DNA of 64,000 nt. It comes from Paramecium tetraurelia. Its lineage: Eukaryota. Every line of letters starts with the position of its first letter. The stretch's first letter is position 1. The notes below the pieces were generated by a model, which was not told where the DNA came from, ran no database searches, and saw only the letters and a list, made by a program, of their open reading frames with translations. A program made the translations under genes and the position numbers. Shown piece by piece: positions 38,920 through 62,684 of this stretch. The stretch lies in the NCBI GenBank assembly GCA_000165425.1, contig CT868022.1:62001-126000 (forward strand), written 5' to 3'.

Positions 38920-41900
38920 ATGAGAAAAGTAGAGTCATTCAAATACATTGAAGATGACAACAACCAGAAATAGATAGCATAGAGTCAAGTGGATAACAAT
39001 CAGTTATTTTATTTATTTATGGTAGCCATCATCCAAATGTGCATGAAACACCAGAAAAATTCAAGAACTCAAGTTTTGACAGAGGTTACAAATAACGATA
39101 GGGTTCTTTTGAATAATTTAATCGAATTCAATTTCACGAGTAAAATAAGTATTGATTGTGTAGGGAAACATTCCCATAGGACACCAATTATGAGAGGAAT
39201 TTTGATAATTCAAAAATGTCTGAATATTCACTCCAAAGCATCGAAAGAGATGATATGGTTGAAGACAGAGTTAATAATCACACACTTCATAAATCAATCC
39301 ATGTCTATTCCAAATTTATATCTTCAGCCTCCCATCAACTCAATATGCAATAAAAACCAGAGCCAGATCCTGAAAAACCAGGAATTGCTATGGATCTTCT
39401 AAATGCATTAGATCACTAATAAGAGGTAGAACCTGAACATTTTAATGATATCGAATACGAGAAAATCACACGTAGGCATAAAAAACTAATACAAAGGAAC
39501 ACCATGAAAGACCCATACTATGTTAGATTGGTGAAATTATCGGATCTTCAAAGATTAAATTATGAGTTGCAAGTAATTTTTTTCATTTATTTAGAAATAT
39601 AATGACAATTTACTATTCTTAAATCTCCGAAAGAGCTTTATATATCTCATATACAGTATTCCAATTATGGCAAGAAAAATAGTTAACAATTTTTTATTTA
39701 AAATTTTGATGACTTTCCTCATCTTATTTAATGTGGTATTGTATATTGTTGTAAAAACAAACGGAAGAACAGATACTGATAACATAGAGGAAGTAGTTAT
39801 GATACTATTTATTTCTGAAATAGGCTTAAGAATTATAGCAAGTGGAGTGTTTTTTAATGATTATGCATTTTTTAGAAATATGGAAAACATCTATGATTTT
39901 GTACTGATATTCTTCACTGCCATGAATCTTTACTACCCTGAAGTCATCATTATCGATATATCACCTCTAAGATTGGTAACATTATTGATGTATCTTACAA
40001 ATATATTCCAGGGATTGAATGTAATGATGACTGCCCTGAAATAATCATTTAGATACTTGGTCGAAGCATTGATGATAGTGATACTATTTTCATTGATATT
40101 TGCATCAATGGGTATATTTCTATTCCAAGGTTTGTTCAATTACAGATGCCAATATGAGAATGGCGATGAAACTGAAGGTTGGATATAATGCAATTAAGGT
40201 CAGTGTCCCTCCGATATGCATTGTATGTATAGCGATTACACTCCCAAAATGCCAACATCTTTCAATAATTTGATTGGTTCTTTAGGATAAATTCTACGGA
40301 CCATTACTATGGATGATTGGAGTTGGGTGATGTTTTTTACAATGAGGATATTTCATCCCTGGGTTTGGCTCTATTATTTGTTGATAATCTTTATTGGAGG
40401 GTTCTTTGGATTCAACATAGTTATTGCAGTGTTGAAGGTTCATTATTCAGAGGCAACGGAAGAAAATAAGAAAAGAGAAGAGGTGAAGGAAATTTAGAAG
40501 AGATTGAAGGAGGAAGAGGAATATCCAGAGAGAAATTTAATAGAAATACTGGATGTTGCACATTTGAGAGAAATTGGTATCTATAAGGTGATCAAGAAAT
40601 ACAGAGCCAATTTAAATGAAGCATCCTTTGTCAAATATTCTATTGAAGACCCTTCTAGCTTTAAGAAGTCATATCAAACTGAAAGAACGTTGTCAGCCAA
40701 ATAAAAACAAATGGAAAGTGGCATCGTTAAGTTACCTTTTATTGAATATATAACCAGTTTCACTTGGAAGAGATTCCTACTACCAAAATTTGATTTCTTA
40801 GATGCTTTAACTAAGAAAATCAAAATAATCAATTATACTGATAATGAATTTAATATGAAGGTTATTGAAAGGTTAAAAACCATAAAATTTTCCAGATTAT
40901 AACCCTAAGTGAATAAGGATGTCAAGCAGAATTTTAGTTCTTAGAATGAAGTCTTACTGAGATTTATGTAATTATTGTTCTATTTATATATAGTGATTAA
41001 TAGGATTTAATTCAAAAGGAAAAGCATTTTAATCTAGAAAAGATAAGATCCACAAAATTCAAGATGGTTTATCATCAGGTGAAAATTGAAAAGGAAAAAC
41101 TGTATGGCAAGACTCAATTTGCAAGGTCAAGTTTTCCTACAAAGAGCAAGGCCTCATCTCCCTTTCTAAGCATCTATCAAAAGAAAGCTGAGTAGAGCAC
41201 AGATTCAATTATTAATTTTGAGAAGGTTGAGCAGAAATTGTTTAATAAAATGAAAGCCTCTTAGATTATAGAAACGTAATATAAAGAATTCTCCATTTTC
41301 AAAAATGGATAACCTTGTATATTTGTATAGGGATATTACTTAAATTACAAAAGAGTTAAAGAAAAAATTAATTAAAAAATCCCCTTAGTAGTTCACGATC
41401 AGGTGTCAAACAAATTCAAATATTAAGGTATGAGAATGAAGGAGTACTAAAACCACAAAACTATTACCAAACATAATTGGTCTGGTAAAGATGTACTTGA
41501 AATCAATAAAAAGAGATTGCTGTATTTTCATATAGTTTTATCATTGCTTAACAAAGTAGACATAATTATTTGGATTAATGGAGTAAAAGGACTGTATATA
41601 ATGTCATAAAAATATGCATACATAATAGCTACTAGCAGATTTAGTTAATTCTTTTTTGATTTAGTAATTCTTAACAATTTTACATTTCTATCACTCTAAG
41701 GAATTGTTGATATCAATATAATATCAACAGTGGAAGATATCTCGACGATATTTTTATGCTTTGAACTGGTGATGAGATTTTTGGGTTTTAGATTCAAAGA
41801 TCTTTTAAGGTCTCCTGATTTAATATTATAATCTGTTATTGTGATCATCAACTTTTTTGAATTGACTATCAGTGATTATATGACAACTTATTTAAGTGAG

Positions 41901-44900
41901 TAGAATTTGAGATTGATTAGAGGCACCAAATGTTTGCTGTTCTATAGATGTCTTAAATATAACAAGATGGCAATCACAATTGGTCATATTGCTTCTATGA
42001 CATTCGATTAATACATCTATTTGGCTTTCCTCATGTTTTTAGTGATATTCATGTATGCTCTGACTGGAATGGAAATGTATGTAGGGGAATTCGATTAAAA
42101 TGATTCCCTTGGATAATTACATTCTTATGAGAATATCTTTAAATCCTTTATGACAATCTTCAATATTATGACAAATGATGATTGGTATGGTGTTTACGTA
42201 ATTGGAAGTGACATTGATTTTACATTCTCCATCATCTACTCATTTTCTATGGTTCTAATTTTAAATTATCTAACTTATGGTTTGGTTATGGCCGTCTTAT
42301 TGGATGGATTTGGAAAGTATTTAGATCAACCGGTGGAGGAAATCCAAAATGAAATGCAGAAGAACATTAATGAATAATTGTAGCATATTACACAGAACTC
42401 TGATGAGATACAAATGTAATTAGTTGAGACTGTTCAGGAATCCATATATACGAATAAAAATATGACCAACGAGGAACTCAATAAATCTAAACCCAATTTA
42501 ATCTACAACTTAATTAAGTCAATAAGTAAATATTACACTCTAGTTATTTTTAGAATAAATTAATAGAAGACTGTTATCAAGAACACCAAAATTATATGAG
42601 GGTATTGAATGTGAATCATCCCTGTTCTTATTTGAGAAAGACAACCTATTTCGTATTGTATTGACTCACATTACTACATCCATGATCTATGTCTACCTAA
42701 TGGACATCGTTACATATCTGTCTATCATTGCTTTCATCCTTAAAACCTATAATGATTACGAAACAGATAGCGAATCATATCCAGACACTCTGTAATTCTC
42801 ATGCAATATAATTCAATTGGCAGATACAATATTTAATGTAATTGCAAAGGGATTGTTCATGGACAAAGGATCCTACTTGGTATCCACATTCTAAGTTTTT
42901 GATTTTATTTATCAGGTTTCGAATATCATAGCATTTGGTAGTAACCCTGAAGATTTCAAACCAATTCTCAAAATCCTACTCTATTTAGGCTATTTCAGAC
43001 CGATGAAATTGATGTATAGATTGAGTTGGCTAACAAATTTAAGAGAAGCCATTGGAAGATCCTTATTTGATATTTTCAATGTCTTGATTACTCTATTGTC
43101 AGTGTGGATAATGTTTGGAGTGTATGGCATAATACTGTACGAACAATAATTTGGGTATTGCGAAGATAAAATGCTTTTTGAAGTGAATAAAGAAACCTGT
43201 CTAAGCGAAGGTAAAATCTGGGTGAATTACAAACATAATTTCGATAACATTACTATTGCCATTCCCACTTTATATGTCACAGCCTCTTTGGATGGATGGG
43301 GGGAAATCTATTAAATTGCAGAGAATAGTTAAGTAGCTTCAATAGGTCCTTAAGGATTTAATTCATATGTGGTTACTTACATCTTCTTCCTACTTTTTGT
43401 GTTCATAGGTTCGATGTTCTTCTTGAGTCTTTTCACAGGAGTGCTTTACACAAATCTCAAGAAAAATCAGAAGGAAATTGAAAACACTGAAGTCACACAA
43501 TCACAAAAGGAATTTAAAGAAATTTCATCCATGTTAATAAAGGACTTTCCAGAATTCTCAACTCCACCCACTAGTGGAATAAGAAAGATATCTTCTGATA
43601 TTACAAGTAGTGCAACAATTTAGAAATGTTTGTTTCTACTTCTGTGGGTCGATTTCATTATCCTATTGATGTTCACATCAGACATGAGTGATGAGTACTT
43701 TAGAACTATAAATGATTTCCATAATGCATTAAGTGGGATCTATCTAGTTTGGGTAATCCTATTGTTTTTGGCATTGGGAATGAATAGATTTTTTGATAAT
43801 TCTTGGAGAAGATTTTATTTCTTCTTAATAGTGATTGCAGTCATAGATTTCATTGCAGATTATTCAGTGGATTGGATAATGATCTATTACAAGTCAACTC
43901 CTAATGATAGTGGGTACTAATTGCTTCGATTGTTTTTCTCCTTAAGAAGTCTAAGAATTATATTGATATTCTAAGGATTTATCAATTTACAAAGATTGAT
44001 AAATGTTATTCTATTTGCTTTGCCTTATTTGGGCAAGATCTTTTCTATTTTGATAATCACTATGCTAGTATTTGCTTTATTTGGTTGTCAGCTATTTGGT
44101 ACAATAGATAAAGGATAGGTGTTGGATGACTAACTTAATTTTATGACAGCTGCTAGTGCTATGATAACACTCTTCAAATGTGCATCAGGTGATGATTGGA
44201 GGACAGTTATGACAGACACAATGCATTACAACCCATTATGTTGGGAAGATCCTAAATATTGTGGATCATTTGCTAGTCAAATCTACTTCTTCTTATTCAT
44301 GTTCTTTTCCACTTATGTTCTGTTAACACTCTTTTTGTTAAGTTTGGTAGAACAGTTTGAATCCTTTTTCCAATTATAAGACTCACCCATTCAATCATAT
44401 GTAGAAAATATTGATAAAATTAAAACTATTTGGTGCAAGTACTCCTCTGAAACACAAGGATAAACCATGCATTATAAATTCTTATGCAAATTCCTATTAG
44501 ATATTGGCAAACCTCTTGGCGGAGGAGAGGAAGAGAATCTTTGGGATGTTGCTAAGATTGCATCATCATTTAAATTAAAATGGTAATTAGTTTAGATTTA
44601 TTTATAGTGATCTTCATGGTTACATTCAATACAATCAATTGATTTATGAATTGTTCAGAGTGAAATTCCATGCTGACGTGTTCAAGGAAGGTAGTCACGA
44701 TTCTATCAAATAAATTAAGTAGTTCAACAAAGAAATGCAATTACGTTTGATGTATTACAGGAAAAACAGACATATCGAAAGATCGAACATCAGTTCGGCA
44801 CTTTAATTAAAAGCTAATTTCAATATTCTCCATGATTATCTTACTGTTTTGATTCTCTTTAAAACTTGGGAATCATATAGCAGGATCCTCATAAGAAAGC

Positions 44901-45223
44901 TATCAAACAAATAGAATCAATTTTCAGACGACGCTATATCTAGACATACTGAACTAGAATAGAAGTAACTATTCCAATATTTTATTATTAGTGATAAGAA
45001 CAATGTAAATGACCTAATGGAACCAGAAGTGTTGGAGCCATCATGTGAAGAGGCGACTGTCAATTATAATTTTGATAACAAAAAACATCATCACACTAAT
45101 GAAAGTTAAAATTAATCAAATATTGAATTGCCAATCTATCAAGGAGCTTCGCCCTTCTCCATTCAAGAAGAAGATGTCAAAATAATCCTCTCTGCAGTGG
45201 GTGAAAAGTAGCCCATTTTGTGA
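38920..45223 (+). CDS. Four-domain (4x6TM) Cav/Nav/NALCN-superfamily cation channel alpha subunit, paralog A
   Basis: Four Ion_trans repeats with P-loops RTITMDDW (40312), IMTNDDW (42177), TASLDGW (43291) and CASGDDW (44191). S6 motifs such as GGFFGFNIVIAVL. DIII-IV linker TQSQKEF and EF-hand-like C-tail IKTIWCKY...DIGKPLG; several tiny introns. Confidence 0.93.
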
Positions 45224-45900
45224 TTCTTTATTTGTGTATTTTTTATTGACAATAGCATATTCATGTTTATTAAGACAATGGATTCATAGAAGTTGACTCA
45301 TATTATAAAGAAATAGGTGGATGTATGTTTTATAAGCATTAAATAAAATTAGGATAAATTGGATGTTATTATTCTCAAAGGAAATTGCAAGACAAAATAG
45401 TTAAATAAGCAAAAATTAATTTAGAAAGGGTAATAATGGAGAAAATAAACTGAATTAAAAAAAATAGATAACTTGTTAAAACCACTAATTCCTTTTACTT
45501 CTTTTATTATAAGTAACTTATTTATGATTGTTGATGAATAAATTAACAAAAATATTTATTAACATTTTAAACATTAAAAAATAAAGTAAAGCTAGTAAAA
45601 AGAAAGTTCTATAATTAAATAAAGTGAATACTCCATTCTTGTCTAATTTAGTCTCAACTCCAAATTTAAAATCTTAGGTTTTTAGAAATTTTAATTATTT
45701 TTATAATGTTTGAAAATATGAAAAAGTAAAATTGGATAATACAATAATTTTGAGATTCAACCATCTTTGTTATACGAAAGGGTTTCGAAGATTTGTTAGC
45801 TGATTAATTGAAATAAACATATATAAAATTAGCTATTGAATATAAATATGTATGAGATTGACTTTGTAACAGAAATATGATATCATTAAATAATAATAAA

Positions 45901-48900
45901 ATGAATACAGAATGTTCAGTATTATTTCATGTGACTGTAAGAACAACTCTTTCTTAGGTTGTCGGAGTAATTGGTAACTAAGAAGAATTGGGGAGTTGGA
46001 ATGAGAAATGCTTGTGCATTCTAAAAACAGATCCTTAAATATTTCCAAAATGGGTGGCTGAAAAACCAATAGCATTTAAGCAAGGTAAGGTGTTGTGATT
46101 GATTTAGGGACTAAGTTGGAATTTAAATTTGTGATTTTAGATAATGGGACAGCAATTTGGGAAGAATTACCTCAGAATCGAAAGTACAGGTGCAGATACT
46201 GGAAAGTAATATTGACGGCCGATTGGAATAATTACGAAGGGAAGGAATATATTGAAAAGAGATTCAAGTCGAGTGTGTGTTTGGATCAGGAGATATTGAG
46301 TTAATATACTAAGCCAAGATTGAGTGATCAATTTGATCCATTCAATTAGGCCAATGACGATTCGGAGGATTCCGTGGATGGGTTTGATAGTTTTGCAAAG
46401 GAGATAGCAAACAGAAACGATTCAGAAAGCTCGGAATCGGAGGAGGACAAAAAGAAACCAACTGTGGAGCTAAATAAGGATAGCGAATTTTCATCGCTTT
46501 ATTAGTTGTATACGGAGAATCCCAAATTCAGACAGCTGAAGAATTTTAGTTAAAATGACATTTTATATGAAATAAATGATGACCCTTTGATTGGACTTAG
46601 TGACGAGGATTCATTACTAATATCAACATATTATCTACCTATTGTTATAATTAAATAAACTGATGGATCTTACTAAAGAAGTAATTTCCAGCACTCATTT
46701 AGTTTGCATTTGCTATTTGGAGTTCAATAATTTAAAAGAATTTGGTTTGGATTGCCTATCGTTTTGAATGAATTAGGAGAGAAGATTACTGATCAAAGTG
46801 TGGAATTAAAGAACTATTTAAAACAGTTTGGATTTGTTCCTGTGTTTGTCAATCAGGAATGTTTGGATTATTTCAACAAAGAATTCTGTAGTAAACTATA
46901 TTAAGCCATTATGAACAATGATGTCAGTATCACAAAACTAGCAGCCCTTGAGTATTCAGATTACATGCAAGAATGCTTTAAAAAACTGAATGATGAATTT
47001 TTTCAAGAAATTAAACCTCACATCAATCAACATTCAATTGCATTGATAGCCGATTATAGATTGTTATATTTGAGTCAAATCTTTGTGAATCACAAATTTA
47101 CTAGATTGCCTTTAGTGATCTTTTACAATAGATTGTTCCCTCATTTAGATAATTTGAAATTGATTCCATTTTTCCATGAAATCATAAACTCATTTCTACA
47201 TGCCAATGTCATTTGTTTTAGCAATTATAAAACTGCAAATGAATTCTTAACTGTTATGAAGGATATCTACAAGGTTGAGTATCACTCATTCAAAGGCAAT
47301 TTAGCATTCCACTATTATGGAAGAGAAATCTTGGTGAAACTACAAAATCCAGGCATAGAACTCACAGCTTGTGGAGAAAAACGCTACGAAATAGGTGAAC
47401 TTCATTATGACAAGGTAGAAAATGATAACGAAATAAAAATAGTGGGAGTTGATACATATGGACACCAATCAGGAGTTGAATTGAAATTTAGACATCTTCT
47501 CAAATTCATTAAGGAAACTGATATCATCTAGAAGAATCCTCATATCAAATACATACAGATTCTCTTGAAGGCCTTTGAAGATCACGACATTAATGAGCAA
47601 AGAGTCTCATTGCTCAATCAGATCGAGCAAATCAATTCTTATCTGTACCCCAATAGAGACAACTACTTTGTCAAATTGATCGAAGAAGAAATGGATTCTA
47701 AACATCGTTTTAAAGTATTTGAAAAGGCTAAGATATATCTGCAATGTAAATATAGTGGTAGACACGACTTTTATTTATCAGAGTATATTCATTTAAACAA
47801 AATGCCTATTGCTTTGATTAGTGATTCAAGTTGTTATCATCGTGGATTTCAATCCATTGTAACATTCAATGTGTTTTCACATATTGATTTTAAAGAGAAG
47901 TTTGCAGATTTATTAATAAAAGTAATTAACAAACAATATTAATTCACTTAATTGCACAAACTTAAAGTAGAGAAAGATTAATTGATAATTCGACAAAACT
48001 AAACATCTTAATGGATAGAAAACATTTTTATTGATGCCAAGAAGGCTGTTTCAATGCTCAAATTTGCTTAGATTAGTCTACGTTTTCAAGATGGATTGAT
48101 GATTAAAGTGGCACATAATTTGAAATTTCAGCATCTGGATATCTAGTCTGTAGCAAAAGCATATTAGCAATCAACTAAGCCAATCATCATAATAGAGTTT
48201 GAAACTATTGTTACAGATTAATACTTTATTGATTACAAACCCAAGCATTTTCTTTAGCAGAGTCCTCATTTGAAGGGGAATGAGGAAGCAGTTATGATTA
48301 GATAAGTCGAATAAGAATTATTGAATAGGATTAAGGAATTGTCAAAAACGAATAAAGTGTATATTGTATCAGGTGGATTATTTAATGAATTGTCTTCTAT
48401 TTTTAGTGGCTACAATATAAGCTTATTTGCAGAAAACGGGTTTTTGTATAAATCAGACTAATTGCAATGGAATGCCCTATTTAATTTGGATTATTAATGT
48501 CTGATTCAGGTAAGGAAGATATTCAATTAATATGCCATGAAAACAGAAGGAGCCTTGATTGAATCCAAAGAAAGTTCAATAAGCTTGAAACTTATGAATT
48601 CAGATGAATACGTTTAATAGCTGATATAGGATCTAGTTGAAAATGTCTAAATGATAGTGGATAGATACCCCACATTCTAATTAATAATAGGATCTCATTC
48701 AGTAGAGGTAAGTCCTAAAAATCTAAATAAAGGAATGATTTTGGAAATCATTATGCAGAAGGAGAATTTATAAAGAGGCAAATTGGATTTTGCTCTTATT
48801 ATAGCAAGAGGGATACAAAACGAGGATATCTTCTCTCACTTTAAGGTTATTACTTAGAGTAGAAAGTATTTTAGTGAAGTACATTTATTATGGTATCTAA

Positions 48901-49005
48901 TAGAATGCTAGTCTATTTTCAGTTTCCCAGGGACTTATGCCATCCTATGCAAATTATTATCTAAATAATCAACAAGAACTTATTTAATTATTTAAGACTA
49001 TTTGA
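45901..49005 (+). CDS. CBM20 + trehalose-6-phosphate synthase-like (GT20) + trehalose-phosphatase-like (HAD) fusion, degenerate active sites
   Basis: CBM20: VGVIGNQEELGSWN, FPKW, LEFKFV, WEE..NR. GT20-like: STYYLP, WFGLP, LIADYRL, FLHANVICF, IVGVD. TPP-like: VYIVSG, LFAENG, TEGALIESKESS, VEVSPKNLNKG. Confidence 0.85.
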
Positions 49006-49530
49006 ATATATAAATATATTAATTAATTTAAATAATAATTATAAGAATTCAATAGATTAATCAATTAAGTATTTTTTCTATCATCATGAAATTGGTAAAT
49101 TTTAATTTCTAAGATAAAATCAAGCACTTAATAATCATTGCATAATTGAAGAGATCATTTTAAGCCAAAGAATCAAATTTTAATAGTTAATTCCTCTAAT
49201 TAAACATATTCTCTCTATATATATCATAAGTTAATTTACAAGATATTTATAATCAAATCATTAAAATTTAGTGTAAACATTTTACCTTTAGTAATCAACT
49301 TTATGAAATATATAGATCACGGTGTAAATAGATCGTCAACATTAATTTTTAGGAATGTCTAAATTTTATTTGCTTATAAATCTTTTTGTGATTAATATAG
49401 TTAGTAATAAGTGAATGATCATTCATTTAAATTCTTCAATTTTGGGTTTGATGTAATTTATGGCTATTCCACATATTTTTATGAGGACTCTTATTTTTAT
49501 ATTCTATAACATTGTTCAATTAATTAAATA

Positions 49531-50219: not shown

Positions 50220-50258
50220 ATTCAATATTGTTCTAAAATTATAAATGTCTATTCTTCC

Positions 50259-51872: not shown

Positions 51873-54800
51873 ATGAAAAAAAAGGAGAGTCCGCTCTTTG
51901 GCATAGATAATCCTCTCTATAGTTAGAATATCTCGTCTCCTCGATCTTAGGAACTACTACCAATTTACTCTAATGAAAATGAGCATGAGCAGCCAATGGA
52001 TGAAGCATTGAAAGAAAAGAGAAACATTTTCGAAAGAAATAATTTTAGGGCATTGAAAGACGGGCAAAAATAAGAAAGTTCTGAGGAAGATCTTTATTTG
52101 AGTAGCGTCAGGTAAATTATTAATCGGATCATTTAAGTGATAACAGATTTGATTAAGAATCTGTAAAATCAAGAACAAATTCCTTAATTCGCCACTAGAG
52201 AAGTGTTAGTATTTAGAAAAATCAAAAGGGAATTTTCAGCCCTTTGTAAAAAGTGAATACTGGATTAATAATTGATTCAACATACAATTTATAAGTTTAA
52301 GGAGTAAAATCAAGTTCCAAAATTGATAAATACTAGAGTTTTGTACAATAATTTGAATTGGAAGAAGACAAAATGAGAAAGAATAAGGAATTAATCTAGC
52401 AAAAGAGTAATCAAACTAACGAGCTTTCATCCAAAAAGGAATAGCGGAATAAATAAAGGGAAAATTGGGTAAAAATTATAGTGATTTACAGATTTAATGA
52501 ATGTATGGGCAGCGAAGGGGTTTATAATAATACGATTAGTATCCAGATTTATCTAATAGCTTAAGACAAAAACCGAAACCATAAAGTTTAGACTGCTAAC
52601 AAGGAAAATATTTTCCGTCATTGGAGATGTGTCTAGTAATTTTGAATTTATCTTAATTTCTCGTTAAATTAAGTAATAGCCTAGTTTAGTATTAAAAATC
52701 TAATTTGTTAGTTTTTAATTTTGAAATATAATTTTCAGAAAAGAGCGACGAGACTACTACATTGTTTGGAAAATTGTTAAGATTTCTTAAGCAGGAATAT
52801 CATTGTAATAAGACCAGATAGCAAATTCAAAATAATTTGGGATATTTTGTTATTGCTTTTCATTGTGATGAACATATTTTACATCCCCATAAACATCAGT
52901 TTCAATATTTCAACCTCAGGTGTGTTTGAATACTTATTTGATTTGCTGCCATCATGGATTTTTGTTGCTGAAATCATTATTAATTTTAATACTGCTTATT
53001 ATGATAAGGGATTAATGCATGAAGATAGAAAGTCAATAGTGAAACATTATTTAAAAGACAATTTCTTTTGGGATTTAATTGTAGTAATACCATTTTTAAT
53101 GTCTAATTTGGATATACCATTCGTTAGATATACCTTATTACTTAGATTGACGAGGTTGGCACCATTAATGGAAAGCATTGAAGAAATGTTGAATTTGGAG
53201 GTATGAATAAATAAATATGATGAGGAAAATATACAAATTGTTGTTGATCTTTTAAAACTTATCTTTTTTCTTGTTTTGACAGGTCACTTCTGTGGATGTG
53301 CATGGCATTTTGTTGCCTTAACAGAATATGAATCATTTGGTATTACAGATAATTGGCTAACTCATTATGACCGATAGGCCTTTGATTATCATTGGTTTGA
53401 CAGATATATCATATCTCTTTATTGGAGTGTAATCACAACAGTTACAGTTGGCTATGGAGATATAGTACCTGTCACAACGTTTGAAAGGATATTTGTAATC
53501 ATTGTAACGCTATTGCTTTGTGGAGTGTTCGGTTATTCAATTTCAAATATTGGCAACATTTTTAAATAGATGTCCGATAAGAAGACTATCTACAAATTTA
53601 AACTACGCCAAATTCATTCGCATATTAGAAAAAGAGGTCTCAATTTAAATCTATCATTAAAGGTAAGAGCTTCTTTAATGTCCTAGGTGAAGAAGTATTT
53701 TGAGTACTTTTTCCAACTGGAACAAGAAGAAGACAGCCACGCAGAAATATTCATCAGTCAATTAACCAAACATTTAAGAGAGGAAGTGTTGACTGATTTA
53801 TATTGCAATACGCTTAAGAAGTCAAGATTCCTTAGAGAAAACTTTAAAGAAATAACCATCAATAATTTATGTCAATATGTTAAGGAGAAGAAAGTGTTGC
53901 CTGAAGAGGTTTTGTATTCTCGATTCGATCAACCTAGGAAAGTTTGGTTTATACTTTCAGGAGCCTTGGAATTTGTAGCAGATCACAAGAGTAATTTAAA
54001 TATATGAATTTTACTAGATGAAAATGATTATTATGAAGCCACTGAAACTTTTCTCAAGAAGGTCAGTTCTGGGTAATGCATATGTATCTAATTTTAGAGC
54101 AGTATTAGGAGAGAGAGAGTTCATCACACAGCAGCCATATGAATACAAAGTAAGGGCTTTAAAATTCACATAAATGGCATATATTGAGTACTTATTTATT
54201 TGAAGTTTTCAATAGTTATGAGGATTTCATTAATGTAATTAGCGAGAATGATACAGAATATGAAATATTTTGTATGAAGAGAGATAGATTGTTGTTTAAT
54301 CCTTAATTTAAAGGATCTGGAAATGTATGCGAAATTTGTGAATGGACTCATAACTTCATTTAGTAATTATCTAAAATTAATTGGATTAGATGCCCATTTG
54401 TATTCTTGTAACCTAACTTCAATAAAATATCCAGTCGTTTCACTTCAGTTAGATTAAATAATAGAATCAAATTTCCATATCGTAATACAACGAAATCAAG
54501 AACGAAAGAGTGTTTGAATAGTATATAAGAAGGAGCACTAAAAATAATCGTTGGCAATTTATCTGAAGAGTAAATCAATTAAGTTATAATAGAGAATATA
54601 CGGACGAATATTTAATATCTTTAGGATTTTAATTGACTTAGAATATGGAAATTGATTCTTAAAATGATGATGAATCATCCAAAAATTTAAATGATTCTCA
54701 ATCACCCACAATTACCGAAAAGCAAAGGTTATTTTAGAAGAAATGTGCAAAAACAATGTCTGGAGTTGCTACTATGGATTTTAAAGATGTTAAAGAAACA

Positions 54801-55715
54801 CATGATTTGAAAAAAAGTATCATAAATTTCCAAAGGATTCAATTTGGAAAGGAAAAATAAAAAGGATTCTAAGTTCATAAGAAGGAATAAAATGAAAATG
54901 GAATAGAAGTATTAGAGCAATCATAGTTACTTGTTCTTCCAAATGCAACTAATGCTAGATACTTTTCAAAGTAATTTTAAGGTACTCCTCGTCGTTCATC
55001 AAATTTTGATGAGTTTGGTAGTCTTCAATTATCTCAAAAGTCAGGGAATTTTACAAGTCTATTAGAATAAGAATAGAACAAATTACTCATAAAACAAATC
55101 AGCAAAAATAGTGAATCAAGTGAAATGCAAGAATCTTTGATACGGAAATAGATTGAAAACCAAGAAAGGAGATTATAAGGTGGAGGGGAGTAGAGAAGGA
55201 AGAAAAGGAAAACAACGATTCAATTGGGATAGAAGCCTTAACGTAAGTCTTATTAACATTAATAATCAAATTTAAGTCCAGTTCTCTAATAATAATTTTA
55301 GAAGTAATAGCTGCCGGCAGTTTTGGATCAGAAATTAAAAAGATAAAGTATTGGAGAATCTAGGAAATAAATGTAAACAAATTAGATCACGAGTGTTGGT
55401 CAAATTGAAATGGATGGTGAATATGGTGAAAATATATAAGACGATTCATTGTAACAGAAGATTTTAGATATAGTTCATTCTAATGAAAATTATCAGGTGG
55501 ATTGTTGTAAACCTGCACTTATGTATTTCCCTGAGTTTAACATAGAGGTAATTCTAAAGAAAATCGAATACTACTATTTATTTGTGAAAGGAGTAGAAAA
55601 GAAAATGTACAAAAGAAGCAAATCTAGTAGAAACTTATTTGAAAGAATCAAACCCTCAAAAAATGCTACTATTAAAAGCTATTAGAACAACTCTAGATCG
55701 TAAGGAGAAGTATGA
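51873..55715 (+). CDS. Six-TM K+ channel with cyclic-nucleotide-binding(-homology) domain (eag/KCNH-HCN-like ciliate family)
   Basis: IRPDSKFKIIWDI, INFNTAYY..G, HFCGCAW, pore YWSVITTVTVGYGDIVP, C-linker KVKKYFEY/LTKHLREEV and CNBD (WFILSG, LGEREF); long low-complexity N- and C-termini; many tiny introns. Confidence 0.93.
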
Positions 55716-55788: not shown

Positions 55789-58700
55789 TCATTTCATCTT
55801 TTAAATTCTGTGCGAATGATAAATCTTCTAAACATCGCCCTCTTCAATTCCAGAACTACTAGTTTTATACAATGCAGGCTTAGGCTAATAATAGAAAGAT
55901 ATCAAATACATTAATATAATCTCCTGCCAAATAATCATTTACCTAACCTTATAATTGAACTCTCTTATTTCTCCCTAACCCTCTTTTTTAATATATAGGA
56001 GGATTGTCATTCAATTATATTTTAGATTCCTAACTATCGATGCTTTTCTGTGTTACTGAATGTTTGATTGGTTCAGTATCCCTAACTGTACGTTGTGAAA
56101 AATGTTGTTATTAAGTGATGATGTTGCCAATTATTTAACGAGCGTAAGACTTCCACAATTTGAAAGTAATTAATGTTATCAATAGAATATGCAAAATGTT
56201 GCCATTTCCATCTAATCTAAGTTATGGTCCAATGTTAGTCCTTCTCTGTCTTAATCCGCCTCTTCTATAATAGGCTAATCTAAATTGAACTGTCTTATGA
56301 AATTAATTCATCTTTCTTGCAGCCATTACAGAGCATTACTCAAAGATTTGTTGCTCATATCTATGATAGAAAATCTCATATAATAATTGATTGTAGGATA
56401 TGTTATCTTGCATATCGCAAAACAGATTGAATTGTAAACTTAGTTTAGCAGCATCCCACAAATTATCATAGGGTTTACATCCTAGAGGTTCTTTAATTTC
56501 AATCAATAAATGAGGCAAATATCTAATACTCAACACCTGCCCATTTTAACTAGAAAACTTGAACCATGCCTTTCTAAAAGAATCAATATTTTCTACGTAT
56601 GTTTAAAGGACGGAGTCTTAATTGTTGAAAAAGAATTCAAATTGCTCAATCATGGCCAAAATAAATAAATTCAAAAATGTGTAATTAGATATCAGCATAA
56701 AAGAGATAAAATAGATTTGGGCATAGGGTGAACCACAATATTTAGGGTCTTCTGAACAATAGGGGTTGTGATGCATACAATCATTCATTATGGAACGAAA
56801 GTCATCACCACTAACACATTTGAAGAGGGTCAACATGGCTGACCAAAAGTTTGAAAAGTTAATCAAATCATTAATTACCTCTCCCTTGTCTATGTTTCCA
56901 TATAACATAATTCCATAAAATGCATATACAATCATTATTAAGAGAAGTATGAAAAGAATCTTCAACATAAATGGAAATGCAAAGTACATAACTCTTACCA
57001 ATCTTTAGAGATTCTACATTTTTTGAAATATGATGATAACTCTTAAATTTCTAAGAGTGTACAAAACTCTTAACAATTAATAGTGCTATGTTAATTGAGT
57101 TGAATTGCTATATACGTGAAACCAATTGTATTCGTAGTCAAGAATCAAGTCTACAACCCCCAAAACAATTACAAAGGAAGTATACAGTCTCCATAAATTA
57201 TCTTTGAATCTATTGATCCCCAAAATCAAACATTGAAGCAGCAATTAGCCAGCAAAAACCGAAGAACAAATGTGATGAATTGTATTTATTTAATCATTAA
57301 AATCATGCTCACCTGTATGATGAATCATCATTATAGCAATGCAATTCACTAGCAGAACACAAAATATGAATGCATCAAAATATTTGTTCATGACGAGAAT
57401 ATTTAATAACCTTCTAAATTAAGATTTAGGAATTTAAGCTCTGATAGGATGATCGCGTAGAATGATTTCTGACACCTATATATAATCCAATTGAGCCTAA
57501 GTTAATTATTGGTTTTCAATTTGCTTAGAATTAGCTTTTAAATTGATAAATAATACACCCGTAAATAACTGTAAGAAAAACATGGCTCCAATTGTACAAA
57601 ATGCAAAATAAAAAAGATATGCTGGAATTTAGCTGAAATACAGTTGCGGACCATCTGAAGCCATTCTGCTATTCTAAGACACCCATAAAATTGAACTCCA
57701 TCCATCAAAAGTTGAAATAATGAACAAAGTAGGCATTGCAGTAGTAATATTATCAAAATTATGTTTATAAACTCTCCATTCTTTTCCTAATCTTGTACAC
57801 TCACCCTAACCAACATCATAATTGGTTTATTCCTCACAAAATCCCATTTTATCTGAAAACAGCATCATCGAAAATACAGCGAACATCAACCATACAAGAA
57901 GTAATACTACGAATACGTTGATGATATCAAATAATGATTAAGTTATAGCAGCCCTTACTCTGACCACCCATTTTATCCTATAAAGTAATTTCAAAGGTCT
58001 AAAAAATAGAAAAGTCTCTATCACCATAAAAATAGGAAGATGAACAATCTAGAATATTTCAATATAATAAACCAATATGTACACCAAATCAACCACCTTC
58101 CAAGTATACTATTAGATAAAAATTTATAAATACGTTGAGGTATGATCCATTATCCATGAATGCTCCAAAAGCGATTGATTTGATTACAAATTCAATAAAA
58201 ATTACTGAATTCAAAATAAATAATGCAGTAACAAACTATGGTTGTTGCTAAATATCTTATGGGAGTGTTAAATAAATAGTAGTGAGGAATAATGTTAAAT
58301 CAATAAAATATTTTGTATAGTTGCTCAAACTAATTCTATAGAAGAACTATCTCAAAGAATTTGATTTACTAAAATAATAGAAGGATTAAACGCAATCAAC
58401 TCCTTAGTACATCTTTAAATTATGTTTAAACATTTTTTTGGAGATTTGTTCAACCTTCTCTTTTAGATATTTTATAGTTTTTGATTCTGAACTTTTCAAT
58501 CTATGCATATTAGTTTTGCTCTTTAACCTACTGAAATCCTCTTTGATTTTCTTTCTCTCTTCATCATTTGGGTCGAATCTTTTAGTTATAGCTGAATGAA
58601 ATAGTTACTAATCAAAATAGTTATCTCTTTTGATTTATACTAAAATATTGTTTGCAGATGCTTGAACATTGTCGTTGGATTCGCTTTCCTATAATCTCTT

Positions 58701-61700
58701 ATTGAGAAATTGTGGTTAATATTAATATTATTTAACAGATGAAGAAGAGGAGTTTGAATCAGATTCGGATTCTGAATCATTTTCCGAAAGTTCTGAATCT
58801 AATTTTTTGTTTAATTTATTTTTTTATTTGATCTTTTCTATCATAAATTCATTCTGTTCGTTTGTAGATTCTCTTTCTAAGTATTGACTAAATCCATCCA
58901 ATAATATTGCCATCATGATGCCAAATATAAAATAGTTAAGTGTAAACACTAATGCTATAGAGTAAGTGATCGATAATTCTGTCTGCACTTCTGTCCCAAC
59001 TTTATAAACTCCAAACCAATCATCATTTGTCATTATATTAAATACAGTCATAAATGCTATTATTGGATCATCGAATGAATGCATGTAACCATTTTCATGG
59101 TACTTATCCAATTTGTTACCATACAACTCCATTCCAATCAAACCAAATGTCAAAATCATAAAGAACATCAAAAATGCCAAGTAAATATAGGATTTGTAAG
59201 TAATTTATGCAATTGCCCCAATTATTCTAGCCATCTAGATATAAGCTATGCATCTATAGAATAATAGACACTTTGTAGATCTCATCAATTTTAAGTATTA
59301 TTCGCTTAGATTCAAGTAGTCACTAAACCCAAATTCAATCACACCTAAAATAACAACAAGTAGTTCTATTACAAAATATTTATTTTTGGCTATTCTTCCT
59401 AATATCACTATAATAAATTACTTGGTTTATGCACTATCAACTAAAATATAATTTCAATAGATAATAATATAGTGGCAATATCTTCTACTTGACTAATTAT
59501 CTTTCTCTTGATTATACCCTATGAAGCCAAAAAAAATGTATTAATAAGAATTGTTAAATCAAAAAATAATTTAGTTAGTTTGAAATGCATTATTTTAAAT
59601 GAGTATTTCTGTAAAGTTATAAAAATTCCACTTAAGGATATCTACCAAATTTGAATGTTTCTTTCATTTAATTGTTGAAAAATATCATCAAATTTTTTAA
59701 TTACAATTTAATTGTTTTTCAAAACATTGTTGCCAGACCAAATTTTCGATTTTATGTATTTTTTCTTAATCTCTTTTCTCACTAGCTTTTTGTATTCCTC
59801 TTAACACCTGGGTTCCTTTTGCTGTTTAAAATTAAAATTTGCATTGATTCTTTTCACTGCCTCAACATAATCTAAATATGTTCCATTTATTAGCACTTTT
59901 AACTAACCCTAATCATTTATTGTAAATGGTTAGCCTAGAGAATATTCAGGAATAACTGAGTATCCTCTCATGAAATAAGGAAACATTCTTCGTTATTTTT
60001 CAACATCTTCTTTTATATGAATTTCTCTATTGTTTTAAGAACAGGAATCTGAACTTTATTTTTTGCCATGTATCTCCGATTTGTTTTCATTCTCCTTTTT
60101 CATTCTATTTGAAGTCTTCATTGGCAATTAAGCTAGAGATTTCTAGACATTTGAAGGAGAAGTCTCTATCTCTTCTAATTTACTAGATTTTCTATATTGA
60201 CTTTAAACTAGCTATTTTTTCTTTTAAATCGGTTTGTAGTATAAGGTCTTCTTTTTCAATCTTTTAGAATTTTAAAATGGTGTTTTTCTTAAAACTTGAA
60301 AAAGAGATTTCCTTAAAACATCCAAATGGCTTGTCTATACATAATTGTATTTATAATCTATATATTTTTCCAGTAAAAATGAGGATCTACTAAATTTCTT
60401 AATTGTTTCTTAAATTTTAGGATTTGAACTAAATATCTTAATATCCAAGTTCAGAAAATATTTCTATATAATTTAAAATTTGGGTAGAAGTAGCAATTTC
60501 AAAGAAAAGTTCTTAATTTAATTCTTTATTTGTGTAAAATTACTTATGTCTATTCTATTCTCATTGATCATACTTCCTAATAAAGGTCGAAGCTGCCCAC
60601 CACTATATTGTTGTACTCCATTAATCAGAGGTTCATTTATCAAGATATCATTTGAGTTTGAAAATAGGAAAGTATTCATTTATTTTATGAAATCATACAG
60701 TCCTATTCTCTTCAAATTCGATTAGCTAATAAACTTCTCCTTTTTATCTGGTTTTACTATCTATCTAAATTACATTTCACTAAAATGAATCTTGAATACT
60801 GCAATGGGAAGATTAAATCCGAAAAAGCCTCCAACAAATATTATTAGCACATAATAAATCCAAACAATAGGATGGAATGCTCTAATTGTATATTGCATAA
60901 CCCAACTCCAATCATCCATTGTTACAGTTTTCAAAATAAGAACAAATGAATAGATAATGTTATTAAAGTTTGTTGGAATATTATAGGAATGATTTGTTGC
61001 TTGACAAGTAGTTCCATCTGGACAATGACCTTGTCTACATTATATCCAGTCTGATTCATCTGATGGTAAGCATCTTTCATTAAACAAACCCATAAACAAT
61101 GATGTTCCTAAAGATGCAAAAAATAGAACAAATAATATAACAATTGCCGTTGATTCTAACATAAATTTTAATGATTCTATTAATGCGTCTATCATTTTTT
61201 ATAATCCTTGGTATACTAAATGTAATTTACCTGCAAAAATGAATCCTAGATGTTTCAGCAATCTTGTCATTCTTAACGGAGTGATATCTAATACAGCTGA
61301 AAAATACATCAGATGATAGTAATATAGAATGATTAAAGATGCATCAATTACTCTTGAAATAAAGATGAATTTCGTACGAAACAGTCCAAAAGCTAAAAGT
61401 TATAATACTATATCAACTACGTAAAACCAGAAAAACGCTATATTCTAATTTATAATAATTACTAATATCAAATTCTGCAAATCGATTATCTTTATCGTAC
61501 ATATGCTCAAATACAAAAATTACAATGTTACTCAATGTTACTAAAGTCAAGATATATTAATATAATCTTGATCTCACTATGATTTTAGAGATCCTCCTAG
61601 TAACTAAATATAAATATAGGAAGGTTTTTCTCAATTTTAACATTTTGTACCTATCCATATAAGAGCTCTCAATTATTTCTTATTATTACATAAATCAAAT

Positions 61701-62684
61701 GATATTTTTTAAAACTTTGGAGTTTTCTATATTTTATAAATTATGAGCCATCATTACAATTTATTCTTTAACAAATTTTCTCATATTATTTGGACAAGTT
61801 TTATAACTAATCAAAAGCCTATTAATGAATTATTATTTTATTACAGCAATAGAAGATTAGGATTGCGAATTAATTGACGAAGGACCGAATCCGTCGAGTG
61901 AAAGATGTAAATCAGAGACTCTGGGGCACAAATAGGTTGACTTATTTATATTATTGGTTTACACTAATTTCAGCCATTGGAGTTTACATGGAAAACTGTG
62001 GACTAAAACAAAAGTTTTCATTTTGCTATTAAACTATTTACAGATCCTATTTCTCCTTTTATTAAGCACTTGCATTTGATTAGTTATCATCATTTTAAGG
62101 GCTCGAAAATATTTCAGATAATTCTTAATTCTTGCTATTTTTTTAATATTAATTTCTCCTTTTAATAGTCGAGTCAAACTATTCTATCTCTTAATTCAGT
62201 AAGTAGTTATTAAGCGTACCCTTATCAACCATCTTGTCAAATAATTTTTACTAAATTTCCTCCCTAAAAATCATAGGTTACATTACTACTTTTAAGTATC
62301 CTTTTGGCTTTTAGTCTATCTAATTGTTTTCGAGAATACATCTTGTGTTTATTGGTTTAGATTCCTTCTCATTCTTGAAGAAGAATGTGATTTGATTGTT
62401 TTTACAGAATTCACACTTGAATCTGAACTTCCAGATTATATTGACTTTTGGATAGAAACATCACTATCTGATTCTGAGTCAGATATGCGTTTAAGATTGG
62501 CAGGAAATTGATTAGCTTATTTAAGCTCCTGTCTCTCTAATATATTACATCTTTTGATTTATTTGCTCGTCCTTAATTATTTTGGTCTCCTTTTTGGATT
62601 ATCCTCAGATTAAAACGATGTGGTGTTGTTGTTAACAACTATTGTTTTAGAGGGATACCTCTTTCTGGGATTTAGAGATTGCAT
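55789..62684 (-). CDS. Four-domain (4x6TM) Cav/Nav/NALCN-superfamily cation channel alpha subunit, paralog B
   Basis: ATG 62684 (MQSLNPRKRYPSK...). P-loops KTVTMDDW (~60914), IMTNDDW (~59022), ISTFDGW (~57703) and CVSGDDF (~56803). Shares MHxNPxCxEDPKYCGS and GGFFGFNL with paralog A. Stop ...RIQKMK* at 55789. Confidence 0.92.

What the first reader, a model, noticed from the sequence alone, without database searches (positions are those of the whole stretch)
38920..62684. Two single-chain four-domain channels with an all-aspartate (D/D/D/D) selectivity ring
Seen: the filter position is Asp in all four P-loops of both genes (A: TMDDW, TNDDW, SLDGW, SGDDW; B: TMDDW, TNDDW, TFDGW, SGDDF), with an extra Asp at +1 in domains I, II and IV. 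Established: Cav1/2 use EEEE, Cav3 EEDD, Nav DEKA and NALCN EEKE/EKEE/EEEE. An all-Asp T-x-D-x-W ring is characteristic of the flagellar CatSper channel, which is assembled from four separate subunits. Inference: this may be a ciliate-specific channel class with a CatSper-like pore chemistry, and a candidate for Paramecium divalent or leak currents not yet tied to a gene. The pattern may already be listed in broad phylogenetic surveys, but I know of no functional characterisation.
Basis: partly seen in the sequence, partly recalled or inferred. Interest (0 to 1): 0.85.

Follow-up and report, generated by a model that had tools for sequence, protein, structure and literature searches.

The report
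Paramecium all-aspartate four-domain channel genes
Two neighbouring Paramecium genes encode calcium-channel-like proteins whose ion filter is built from four aspartates instead of the usual glutamates; the pattern is real and conserved, but this gene family was already catalogued in a 2018 survey and its function is still untested.

Summary
Gene A (+ strand, 38920-45223, 7 exons, 2051 aa) and gene B (- strand, 62684-55789, 9 exons, 2235 aa) are intact single-chain four-domain channels. Asp sits at the selectivity locus of all four P-loops, with a second Asp at +1 in domains I, II and IV. The locus was checked against solved Cav structures. It was also checked in a 182-sequence alignment that recovers EEKE/EKEE for named NALCNs and EEDD for a named T-type channel.

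The genes belong to a monophyletic, Paramecium-only family. It is sister to a mostly EEEE clade whose named members are ciliates. D/D/D/D holds in 33 of 39 family rows and in 0 of 143 other rows.

The class is not new. Pozdnyakov et al. 2018 (PMC5824947) describe it as ciliate "subclade Ic": D/D/D/D filter, charge-poor S4, IQ motif, "likely voltage-insensitive". Gene B is their Paramt33, and gene A matches their Paramt24.

Both genes are transcribed at low level on the sense strand. I found no functional study. The likeliest mechanism is a Ca2+-preferring pore with atypical gating; this is inferred, not shown.

The parts
38920..45223 (+). Gene A, four-domain channel, 2051 aa. Exons: 38920-39002, 39026-39139, 39164-39572, 39595-40967, 40994-42525, 42554-44582, 44608-45223 (stop TGA 45221-45223). 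Introns of 23, 24, 22, 26, 28 and 25 nt.
   Evidence: Splice model. It is colinear with the P. octaurelia protein P0002 (95.4% over 2051 aa, one gap). Intron 44583-44607 is removed in an RNA contig. Five of six introns are GTA..TAG and one is GTT..TAG.
55789..62684 (-). Gene B, four-domain channel, 2235 aa. Exons (- strand): 62684-62340, 62319-61963, 61940-61845, 61818-61690, 61667-61463, 61437-59422, 59398-58134, 58108-55910, 55884-55789 (stop TGA 55791-55789). Introns of 20 to 26 nt.
   Evidence: It is colinear with the P. octaurelia protein P0248 (82.9% over residues 1-2234). It differs at 3 of 1930 aligned residues, with 2 gaps, from the P. tetraurelia protein P0247 = XP_001430323.1. An RNA contig ends exactly at 55910, the last exon boundary; this is only suggestive. 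The 5' exons rest on the orthologue's annotation alone.
40306..40320 (+). A domain I P-loop TMDDW (filter Asp plus Asp at +1).
   Evidence: Aligned to ITLEGW of Cav3.1 DI. Invariant in 9 of 9 diverse members.
42171..42185 (+). A domain II P-loop TNDDW.
   Evidence: Aligned to LTQEDW of Cav3.1 DII. Invariant.
43285..43299 (+). A domain III P-loop SLDGW.
   Evidence: Aligned to TGEGW and TFEGW of Cav2.2 and Cav1.3 DIII. D-G-W is invariant.
44185..44199 (+). A domain IV P-loop SGDDW.
   Evidence: Aligned to the GEDW loop of Cav2.2 and Cav1.3. In the 182-row alignment it falls in the DIV filter column.
60908..60922 (-). B domain I P-loop TMDDW.
59016..59030 (-). B domain II P-loop TNDDW.
57698..57712 (-). 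B domain III P-loop TFDGW.
56798..56812 (-). B domain IV P-loop SGDDF. Phe replaces the usual Trp at +2.
   Evidence: SGDDF or SGDDL is present in 8 of 8 other B-subfamily proteins.
39961..40011 (+). A domain I S4 (SPLRLVTLLMYLTNIFQ). Only one Arg remains.
   Evidence: The string is identical to that given for Paramt23 and Paramt24 in the 2018 supplement.
41910..41957 (+). A domain II S4 (RLIRGTKCLLFYRCLK). By my reading of the alignment, five of six charges are in register with the EEEE relatives P0068 and P0070.
42970..43020 (+). A domain III S4 (KILLYLGYFRPMKLMYR). Two middle charges are lost.
43921..43977 (+). A domain IV S4 (three Arg). The conserved acidic partners in S2 and S3 of this domain are lost.
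44846..44878 (+). A C-terminal IQ-like motif VLILFKTWESY.
   Evidence: The same string is listed as the IQ motif of Paramt23 and Paramt24. Pfam finds nothing in this exon.
61232..61282 (-). B domain I S4 (TPLRMTRLLKHLGFIFA). It keeps R, R and K.
   Evidence: Identical to the Paramt33 entry.
56144..56176 (-). B C-terminal IQ-like motif TLITFKLWKSY.
   Evidence: Identical to the Paramt33 entry.

Best explanation
A and B are two intact, transcribed members of the Paramecium-specific D/D/D/D family of four-domain (24-TM) cation channels. This is Pozdnyakov's ciliate subclade Ic. B is Paramt33 (XP_001430323.1), and A corresponds to Paramt24. They are old paralogues lying tail to tail, not recent tandem copies.

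Most likely mechanism, which is inferred and not shown: each protein folds like a Cav alpha-1 subunit. Its pore is lined by a ring of four Asp carboxylates, with three more Asp one residue further out in domains I, II and IV. Such a high-charge filter should bind divalent cations tightly. It should conduct Ca2+ in preference to monovalent ions at physiological Ca2+.

Gating is probably atypical. Each of the four voltage sensors shows at least one departure from the Cav pattern:
- DI S4 keeps 1 charge in A and 3 in B.
- DII has lost the S3 acid in A (B keeps Glu).
- DIII S4 lacks two middle charges.
- DIV has lost both the S2 and the S3 acidic partners.

Voltage dependence is therefore expected to be weak or unusual. 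An IQ-like motif suggests calmodulin control.
For: Shown:
- Four Ion_trans repeats per gene.
- Best solved relatives are Cav2.2, Cav1.3 and Cav2.3 at E 1e-63 to 1e-59.
- The filter locus is verified in all four domains.
- The loops are invariant in diverse members. D/D/D/D holds in 33 of 39 family rows and in 17 of 17 further members.
- The family is monophyletic (support 1.0), beside a mostly EEEE clade whose named members are ciliates.
- Both reading frames are intact and colinear with the orthologues.
- Sense-strand poly(A) RNA reads were found in three runs of one study, and one intron was confirmed.
- Identity with the published data set.
- S4 and S2/S3 charge patterns.

From the literature (passages read):
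[quoted passage not shown] CatSper2/3/4 have Asp plus Gly (PMC10120453).
- CatSper's DDDD pore is described as highly Ca2+ selective.
- An engineered Cav3.1 DDDD pore still conducts Ca2+ (bioRxiv 10.1101/626069).
Against: - No current, localisation or knock-down exists for any family member that I could find.
- The engineered Cav3.1 DDDD channel was more permeable to Mn2+, Cd2+ and monovalent cations than wild type. All-Asp therefore does not guarantee high Ca2+ selectivity.
- Selectivity also depends on the turrets (PMC5824947 Discussion).
- S4 is not empty. By my reading of the alignment, A keeps 5 of 6 charges in DII and 3 of 5 in DIV. Ordinary voltage gating is therefore not excluded.
- RNA depth is low: 0.1 to 3x, against 33 to 44x on a neighbouring gene.
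- Some family members have degenerate filters: DDRD, DDND, TNNW and TNDW. Part of the family may be drifting.
Confidence: 0.62

Rival explanations
1. Voltage-insensitive background (leak-type) cation channels, working like NALCN or Cch1. They would be open or ligand- or partner-gated rather than voltage-gated. This is the published prediction for subclade Ic.
For: - Pozdnyakov et al. call subclade Ic 'likely voltage-insensitive', because at least one S4 is poor in Arg/Lys.
- DI S4 of A has a single Arg. DIII lacks two middle charges. DIV lacks both conserved acidic partners across the family.
Against: - DII S4 keeps most charges in register with the EEEE relatives P0068 and P0070, and DIV keeps three Arg.
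- B keeps R, R and K in DI.
- The family does not group with NALCN in the tree.
- The filter has no Lys, whereas named NALCNs read EEKE or EKEE.
Confidence: 0.3
2. The family carries the somatic, hyperpolarisation-activated, highly Ca2+-selective current (Ihyp) of Paramecium, or another Ca2+ entry path with no gene assigned in the papers I read, such as store-operated influx.
For: - Ihyp is carried by Ca2+ only. It is lost with Ba2+, Co2+, Mg2+, Mn2+ or Sr2+. It is unaffected by mutations that remove the depolarisation-activated current (abstract of PMC2229130).
- It is located in the somatic membrane and has two pharmacological components. No gene is named in the passages I read (PMC8208649).
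- A pore with seven carboxylates and unconventional voltage sensors is a plausible substrate.
- The basis of store-operated entry in Paramecium is stated to be unknown (PMC3194816).
Against: - There is no direct link of any kind.
- The engineered Cav3.1 DDDD pore passes Mn2+ and Cd2+ better than wild type, which is the opposite of Ihyp's strict Ca2+ preference.
- Four-domain channels opened by hyperpolarisation are not known to me (recalled).
- Localisation is unknown.
Confidence: 0.12
3. Poorly selective cation channels that also pass Na+ or other monovalent and divalent ions. An example would be the Ca2+/calmodulin-activated Na+ conductance.
For: - The Cav3.1 DDDD mutant showed higher monovalent, Mn2+ and Cd2+ permeability and weaker Cd2+ block.
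- An IQ-like motif is present.
- A calmodulin-activated Na+ channel of Paramecium appears in the reference list of PMC8208649; I saw no gene named for it.
Against: - Three Asp at HFS+1 argue for Ca2+ selectivity under the 'beacon' rule (PMC10120453).
- There is no Lys in the filter.
Confidence: 0.15
4. Decaying or non-conducting paralogues left over from whole-genome duplications, with no channel function of their own.
For: - The family is large: 24 P. tetraurelia sequences named Paramt11-34.
- A few members have broken filters.
- B diverges faster than A: 82.9% against 95.4% identity to the P. octaurelia orthologues.
- Expression is low.
Against: - Both frames are open over more than 2000 codons, with canonical tiny introns.
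- The P-loops are invariant across subfamilies that are only 35 to 57% identical.
- The Cys-rich turrets are retained, as read from the translations.
- Transcripts are sense-strand.
Confidence: 0.04

Closest known systems
Ciliate four-domain channel subclade Ic of Pozdnyakov, Matantseva and Skarlato 2018 (Sci Rep 8:3539, PMC5824947): Paramt11 to Paramt34
   Same: This is the same family, and for B the same gene.
- B differs from XP_001430323.1 (= Paramt33) at 3 of 1930 aligned residues, with 2 gaps.
- A has the S4, IG and IQ strings listed for Paramt24 (XP_001430317.1), six accession numbers away from B.
- The D/D/D/D filter, the charge-poor S4, the IQ motif and the lack of an identified pre-IQ motif are all as published.
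   Different: Nothing essential differs.
- full exon models; the deposited B protein is N-terminally short (1913 aa against 2235 aa);
- the loss of S2/S3 countercharges in DIV;
- RNA evidence;
- the family's subfamily structure across five aurelia-complex species.
CatSper1-4, the sperm flagellar Ca2+ channel
   Same: Asp at the filter locus in all four pore loops, within a T/S-x-D-x-W loop. CatSper1 also has Asp at +1, and CatSper2/3/4 have Gly at +1. That mirrors the DD/DD/DG/DD pattern here.
   Different: - CatSper is built from four separate one-domain subunits, whereas A and B are single chains with four domains.
- Sequence relatedness is remote: E 2e-7 to 2e-5 to CatSper chains, against 1e-63 to Cav2.2.
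- The likeness is convergent pore chemistry, not membership.
Engineered all-Asp or Asp-rich pores: the Cav3.1 EEDD-to-DDDD mutant, and the Ca2+-selective NavAb and NaChBac mutants
   Same: - The Cav3.1 DDDD pore is a four-domain channel with the same ring. It gates and conducts Ca2+.
- A NavAb mutant with Asp at HFS+1 is Ca2+ selective.
- That the CavAb loop reads TLDDWSD, much like TMDDWSW here, is recalled and not checked.
   Different: These are laboratory mutants in foreign scaffolds. The Cav3.1 DDDD mutant became less, not more, discriminating. A and B are natural proteins with their own turrets and sensors.
Animal Cav channels (Cav1/Cav2 EEEE, Cav3 EEDD)
   Same: - The closest solved structures overall.
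- The DI and DII pore modules score best against Cav3.1.
- Asp at HFS+1 of domain II, as in all animal Cav channels.
- The 4-0-2-2 pattern of turret cysteines described for four-domain channels (PMC6259924) can be read in the translations.
   Different: - The filter is D/D/D/D.
- Identity is only about 25%.
- S4 charges are reduced.
- The family branches with the clade whose named members are ciliates, not inside the animal clades.
NALCN / Cch1 voltage-insensitive clade
   Same: Reduced S4 charge content, and a predicted weak voltage dependence.
   Different: - The NALCN filter contains Lys, reading EEKE or EKEE.
- PDB E-values are far weaker, 6e-29.
- Not the same clade.

Membership tests
Four-domain voltage-gated-like cation channels (Cav/Nav/NALCN superfamily) | Four homologous 6-TM Ion_trans repeats in one polypeptide | tested here: met
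   Pfam PF00520 hits cover DI, DII, DIII and DIV in both genes. E-values run from 6.5e-26 to 9.1e-57.
Four-domain voltage-gated-like cation channels (Cav/Nav/NALCN superfamily) | P-loop of the form T/S-x-[D/E/K/A]-x-W in each domain, aligned to the HFS locus | tested here: met
   B has Phe in place of Trp in DIV.
Four-domain voltage-gated-like cation channels (Cav/Nav/NALCN superfamily) | Significant full-length similarity to solved Cav or Nav alpha subunits | tested here: met
   Cav2.2 (7mix) at E 1e-63, Cav1.3 at 9e-60 and Nav1.5 at about 1e-42, for the DIII-DIV exon.
Ciliate subclade Ic (Pozdnyakov 2018) | Dominant D/D/D/D selectivity filter | tested here: met
   The feature is defined in PMC5824947.
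Ciliate subclade Ic (Pozdnyakov 2018) | At least one Arg/Lys-poor S4 | tested here: met
   A has one Arg in DI S4. Both genes have a depleted DIII S4. The strings are identical to the supplement rows for Paramt24 and Paramt33.
Ciliate subclade Ic (Pozdnyakov 2018) | IQ motif present, pre-IQ motif not identifiable | tested here: inconclusive
   The IQ-like strings VLILFKTWESY (A) and TLITFKLWKSY (B) are present and equal the published entries. I did not test calmodulin binding or search for a pre-IQ motif.
Ciliate subclade Ic (Pozdnyakov 2018) | Placement in the clade, or identity with a listed member | tested here: met
   B = XP_001430323.1 = Paramt33. The ohnologues P0004 = Paramt23 and P0036 = Paramt13. 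The family is monophyletic in my tree. A = Paramt24 is inferred from its strings and from accession adjacency, not from a sequence look-up.
Characterised ciliary Cav1 channels of Paramecium (Lodh et al. 2016) | E/E/E/E filter | tested here: not met
   The filter is D/D/D/D. The E/E/E/E statement for the ciliary channels comes from PMC5824947. The Lodh paper itself is not held.
Characterised ciliary Cav1 channels of Paramecium (Lodh et al. 2016) | Ciliary localisation, and loss of the depolarisation-activated Ca2+ current on RNAi | not testable with these tools
   Needs experiments.
CatSper | One-domain subunits that assemble as a heterotetramer | tested here: not met
   Single chains with four repeats.
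CatSper | Asp at the filter locus of all four pore loops | tested here: met
   for A and B. For CatSper the evidence is literature only; I made no alignment of my own to CatSper loops.
NALCN | Lys-containing filter (EEKE or EKEE) and membership of the opisthokont NALCN/Cch clade | tested here: not met
   There is no Lys in the filter. The family lies apart from the named NALCN rows in the tree.
Cav3 (T-type) | EEDD filter and placement in the LVA clade | tested here: not met
   DIII and DIV agree (both Asp), but DI and DII are Asp rather than Glu. The best pore-module scores are to Cav3.1, but the tree places the family with the clade that holds the named ciliate sequences.

The most novel reading that the evidence does not exclude
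The D/D/D/D family is the missing molecular basis of a classical Paramecium conductance that has no gene assigned in the papers I read. The most attractive candidate is the somatic, hyperpolarisation-activated, strictly Ca2+-selective current (Ihyp) that speeds up ciliary beating. If so, the degenerate voltage sensors (DIV without countercharges, DI almost without gating charges) would give a four-domain channel an inverted or non-canonical voltage dependence.
Probability: 0.1. Interest if true: 0.7.

Novelty: already known. Interest (0 to 1): 0.3.

Why it matters
The family shows that a single-chain Cav-type scaffold can carry a natural CatSper-like all-Asp filter. It has also been kept in many copies: 24 sequences are listed for P. 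tetraurelia in the 2018 survey. The host is an organism whose membrane currents were mapped in detail decades ago, and the papers I read name no gene for several of them.

Tying the family to one of these currents would connect classical Paramecium electrophysiology to genes. It would also give a natural test case for how Asp and Glu rings, and the +1 'beacon' residue, set Ca2+ selectivity.

As a discovery from this scan it adds little. The class, its filter, its S4 depletion and these genes are already in print. What is missing is experiment, not sequence analysis.

Tried and rejected
- First greedy splice models were wrong at both ends. They gave a false 50-nt intron and read-through past the stop in A, and read-through past the stop in B. 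I corrected them with tblastn of the orthologues.
FFT-NS-2 was used instead. The alignment is therefore coarse outside conserved segments, and the S2/S3 and S4 readings should be treated as provisional.
- The all-against-all representative search returned no close Paramecium relatives, only two fragments at 69% and 42% identity. It cannot be used to argue that the family is absent elsewhere.
- Ten of its proteins were looked up for names. Only P0071 (Blepharisma stoltei) and P0084 (Stentor coeruleus) carry an organism name.
- A profile search with nine family members found no member outside five aurelia-complex species. There were 35 Paramecium hits at 2042 bits or more, and the next hit scored 474 bits. 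Proteomes of other Paramecium species may simply not be in the collection.
- Searches for functional work or for the gene identifiers found nothing.
- Lodh et al. 2016 is not held, so statements about the ciliary Cav1 channels are second-hand.
- The search of earlier findings had nothing for this genome.
- RNA reads were too short (58 nt) and too few to confirm the introns of B. Only one A intron and one neighbour-gene intron were confirmed, both through contigs of a fourth RNA run.
- I rejected the idea that A and B are recent tandem duplicates. They are about 35% identical to each other's lineage, and in a tree rooted arbitrarily on the NALCN rows they sit at opposite ends of the family.
- I did not run structure prediction. 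Sequence similarity to solved Cav channels already fixes the fold, and the full protein exceeds the size limit.


Full report
**What is there**

The window is AT-rich DNA (GC 0.25 to 0.32) that reads as long open frames only under the ciliate code.

I built gene models in three steps: a greedy search for tiny GT..AG introns, tblastn of annotated orthologues onto the window, and hand correction.

- Gene A lies on the + strand from the ATG at 38920 to the TGA at 45221-45223. It has 7 exons and 6 introns of 22 to 28 nt, and encodes 2051 aa.
- Gene B lies on the - strand from the ATG at 62684 to the TGA at 55791-55789. It has 9 exons and 8 introns of 20 to 26 nt, and encodes 2235 aa.
- A is colinear with the P. 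octaurelia protein P0002 (95.4% identity over 2051 aa, one gap).
- B is colinear with the P. octaurelia protein P0248 (82.9% over residues 1-2234).
- Both of those orthologues come from a scaffold of the same length, 424,913 bp, so the neighbourhood is probably conserved.
- The genes are convergent, with about 10.5 kb between their stops.

**Is the Asp really the filter residue?**

Each gene has four Ion_trans repeats. The DIII-DIV exon of A hits solved Cav2.2, Cav1.3 and Cav2.3 at E 1e-63 to 1e-59. It hits Nav1.5 at about 1e-42, NALCN at 6e-29 and CatSper chains only at 2e-7 to 2e-5.

- In those HMMER alignments the DIII Asp pairs with the DIII Glu of Cav2.2 and Cav1.3. The DIV Asp pairs with the Glu of a Cav GEDW loop.
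- The DI pore module aligns TMDDW to ITLEGW of Cav3.1.
- The DII module aligns TNDDW to TQEDW of Cav3.1.
- In a MAFFT alignment of 182 full-length channels (A, B and 180 database proteins of at least 1400 aa), the same four columns read EEKE or EKEE in 15 of 16 named NALCNs. The 16th, P0059, has a gap in DII.
- Those columns read EEDD in the named T-type channel and TMEGW/TGEDW/TGEGW/TGEAW in HVA-like rows. The columns are therefore the canonical locus.
- A and B read D/D/D/D, with Asp at +1 in domains I, II and IV and Gly in III.

**Conservation and phylogeny**

A search with A's DIII-DIV exon found 37 Paramecium proteins at 42 to 97% identity. After them came a gap down to 26% or less. A search with B's exon added seven more.

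- D/D/D/D holds in 33 of the 39 family rows of the alignment.
- The six exceptions are DDRD (P0029), DDND (P0035), two truncated proteins (P0031, P0038), and two with a one-residue deletion or Asn in DII (P0030 TNDW, P0034 TNNW).
- None of the 143 other rows is D/D/D/D.
- Seventeen of 17 further members checked by motif keep Asp at all four loci.
- Across nine diverse members with 50% mean column identity, TMDDW, TNDDW and the D-G-W of DIII are invariant.

A FastTree tree was built on 1164 trimmed columns with 181 tips. One row with too few residues was dropped.

- The family is monophyletic, with support 1.0.
- Its sister is one unnamed environmental protein with S/D/D/E (P0089, support 0.998).
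- Next comes a clade of 24 proteins, 14 of them E/E/E/E. It contains the named Blepharisma and Stentor proteins and two Paramecium E/S/L/L proteins.
- In that tree, rooted arbitrarily on the NALCN rows, B's subfamily branches first and A sits in a crown subfamily. A and B are thus old paralogues, not recent tandem copies.
- A profile search with nine members found 35 Paramecium aurelia-complex proteins at 2042 bits or more. The next hit scored 474 bits.

**It is already in print**

Pozdnyakov, Matantseva and Skarlato (Sci Rep 2018, PMC5824947) define a ciliate clade, WSC I. For this paper I read passages, the whole Discussion, and part 7 plus searches of the supplement.

[quoted passage not shown] - In their supplementary tree, Ic holds only P. 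tetraurelia sequences (Paramt11-34). It sits beside Ia (Tetrahymena, Ichthyophthirius, Paramt4-10) and Ib (Oxytricha, Stylonychia).
- Gene B differs from P0247 = XP_001430323.1 at 3 of 1930 aligned residues with 2 gaps. That accession is their Paramt33. Its listed S4 and IQ strings equal those of B.
- Their Paramt24 (XP_001430317.1, six accession numbers earlier) has exactly A's S4, IG and IQ strings. I infer A = Paramt24, but could not look that sequence up.
- The window is therefore P. tetraurelia or something nearly identical to it.
- P0004 (Paramt23) and P0036 (Paramt13) are the duplicate copies on another scaffold.
- Fux et al. 2018 (PMC6259924, passages) also list DDDD among non-animal filters, citing Verret 2010.

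**Voltage sensors**

These readings come from the coarse alignment, shown.

- A's DI S4 has a single Arg, while B keeps R, R and K.
- DII S4 (RLIRGTKCLLFYRCLK) keeps five of six charges in register with the long DII S4 of the EEEE relatives P0068 and P0070. This looks to me like one neutralised position rather than an insertion.
- DIII S4 lacks two middle charges.
- DIV S4 keeps three Arg.
- The conserved S2 Glu and S3 Asp of DIV are both replaced by uncharged residues (hydrophobic, or Gln in B's S2) throughout the family.
- The S3 Asp of DII is Gln in A; B has Glu there.
- Each sensor thus departs from the Cav pattern somewhere, but none is fully stripped. 'Voltage-insensitive' is a prediction, not a finding.

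**Expression**

Three stranded oligo-dT RNA runs of one study (58-nt reads) cover gene A at 0.4 to 3x and gene B at 0.1 to 1.5x. Coverage is on the strand expected for sense transcripts. A neighbouring GTPase gene is covered at 33 to 44x.

- A contig of a fourth RNA run lacks the 25 nt of A's intron 44583-44607.
- Another contig ends exactly at B's last exon boundary, 55910.
- The other introns rest on orthologue annotation and on the GTA..TAG consensus.

**How it probably works**

The fold and the filter positions are shown. The rest is inferred.

[quoted passage not shown] CatSper2/3/4 have Asp plus Gly (PMC10120453, passages).
- A and B have DD/DD/DG/DD, so a Ca2+-preferring pore is the best guess.
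- Against a simple reading, a Cav3.1 channel mutated to DDDD still gated and carried Ca2+. It was blocked less by Cd2+ and passed more Mn2+, Cd2+ and monovalent ions (bioRxiv 10.1101/626069, passages).
- Candidate physiological roles are speculative.
- The somatic hyperpolarisation-activated current is strictly Ca2+-selective and independent of the ciliary channel (abstract of PMC2229130; PMC8208649 passages).
- The basis of store-operated Ca2+ entry in Paramecium is stated to be unknown (PMC3194816).
- I found no paper that tests any family member. Supplements of other papers, and Lodh et al. 2016 (not held), were not seen.

**Verdict**

The class is already described, down to these genes. 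The session adds corrected gene models, RNA support, sensor details and the family's structure across species, but no new kind of system.

Noticed in passing
window 52646-55715 (+), filter near 53207-54007: A third ion-channel gene lies between A and B. Its open frames carry Ion_trans and Ion_trans_2 hits and a K+ channel signature (TVGYGD). RNA depth on the sense strand is low. That makes three channel genes within 24 kb. With the very many K+ channel genes of Paramecium (recalled), this may be chance.
   Followed up: partly
window 46062-49391 (+): A gene with Glyco_transf_20 plus Trehalose_PPase domains, i.e. a trehalose-6-phosphate synthase/phosphatase-type fusion. Its 23-nt intron after 46083 is removed in an RNA contig.
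   Followed up: partly
window about 49400-50150 (+): A small Ras-family GTPase gene. It is by far the most expressed gene of the stretch, at 33 to 44x. RNA reads show mixed bases at 49665 (G/C, 28 to 44 reads of 70 to 105 per run), 49725 and 49731 (G/A) in all three runs. Cross-mapping from a duplicate gene, or strain differences, seem likelier than editing. This was not resolved.
   Followed up: no
window 58913-59119 (gene B, - strand): One contig of RNA run X13 joins 58912 to 59120. It skips 207 nt (69 codons) that include B's domain II P-loop. The ends are non-canonical (TC..AC on the + strand) and only 21 letters lie on the short side. It could be an assembly chimera between paralogues. 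It is not seen in the raw-read runs, whose depth there is under 1x.
   Followed up: no
genes A and B as wholes: B's lineage changes about four times faster than A's. Identity to the P. octaurelia orthologues is 82.9% for B against 95.4% for A. Identity to the duplicate copies in P. tetraurelia is 74% for B against 87% for A. The P-loops stay fixed.
   Followed up: partly
P0089 (1907 aa, unnamed environmental protein): This is the closest outgroup of the D/D/D/D family. It has the filter S/D/D/E (TLSLW, SLDTW, TLDNW, TREQW). It could be an intermediate on the way from E/E/E/E to D/D/D/D. Its organism is unknown.
   Followed up: no
family members P0029, P0035, P0034, P0030: Some paralogues have broken rings: DDRD, DDND, Asn instead of Asp in DII (TNNW), and a one-residue deletion (TNDW). 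These may be subfunctionalised or decaying copies.
   Followed up: no
P0247 (deposited P. tetraurelia protein for gene B) and P0234 (P. octaurelia): The deposited model of gene B is N-terminally short (1913 aa against 2235 aa in my model and 2225 aa in P. octaurelia). A P. octaurelia family member of 2395 aa is named 'protein kinase domain-containing'. That is probably a merge with a neighbouring gene.
   Followed up: no
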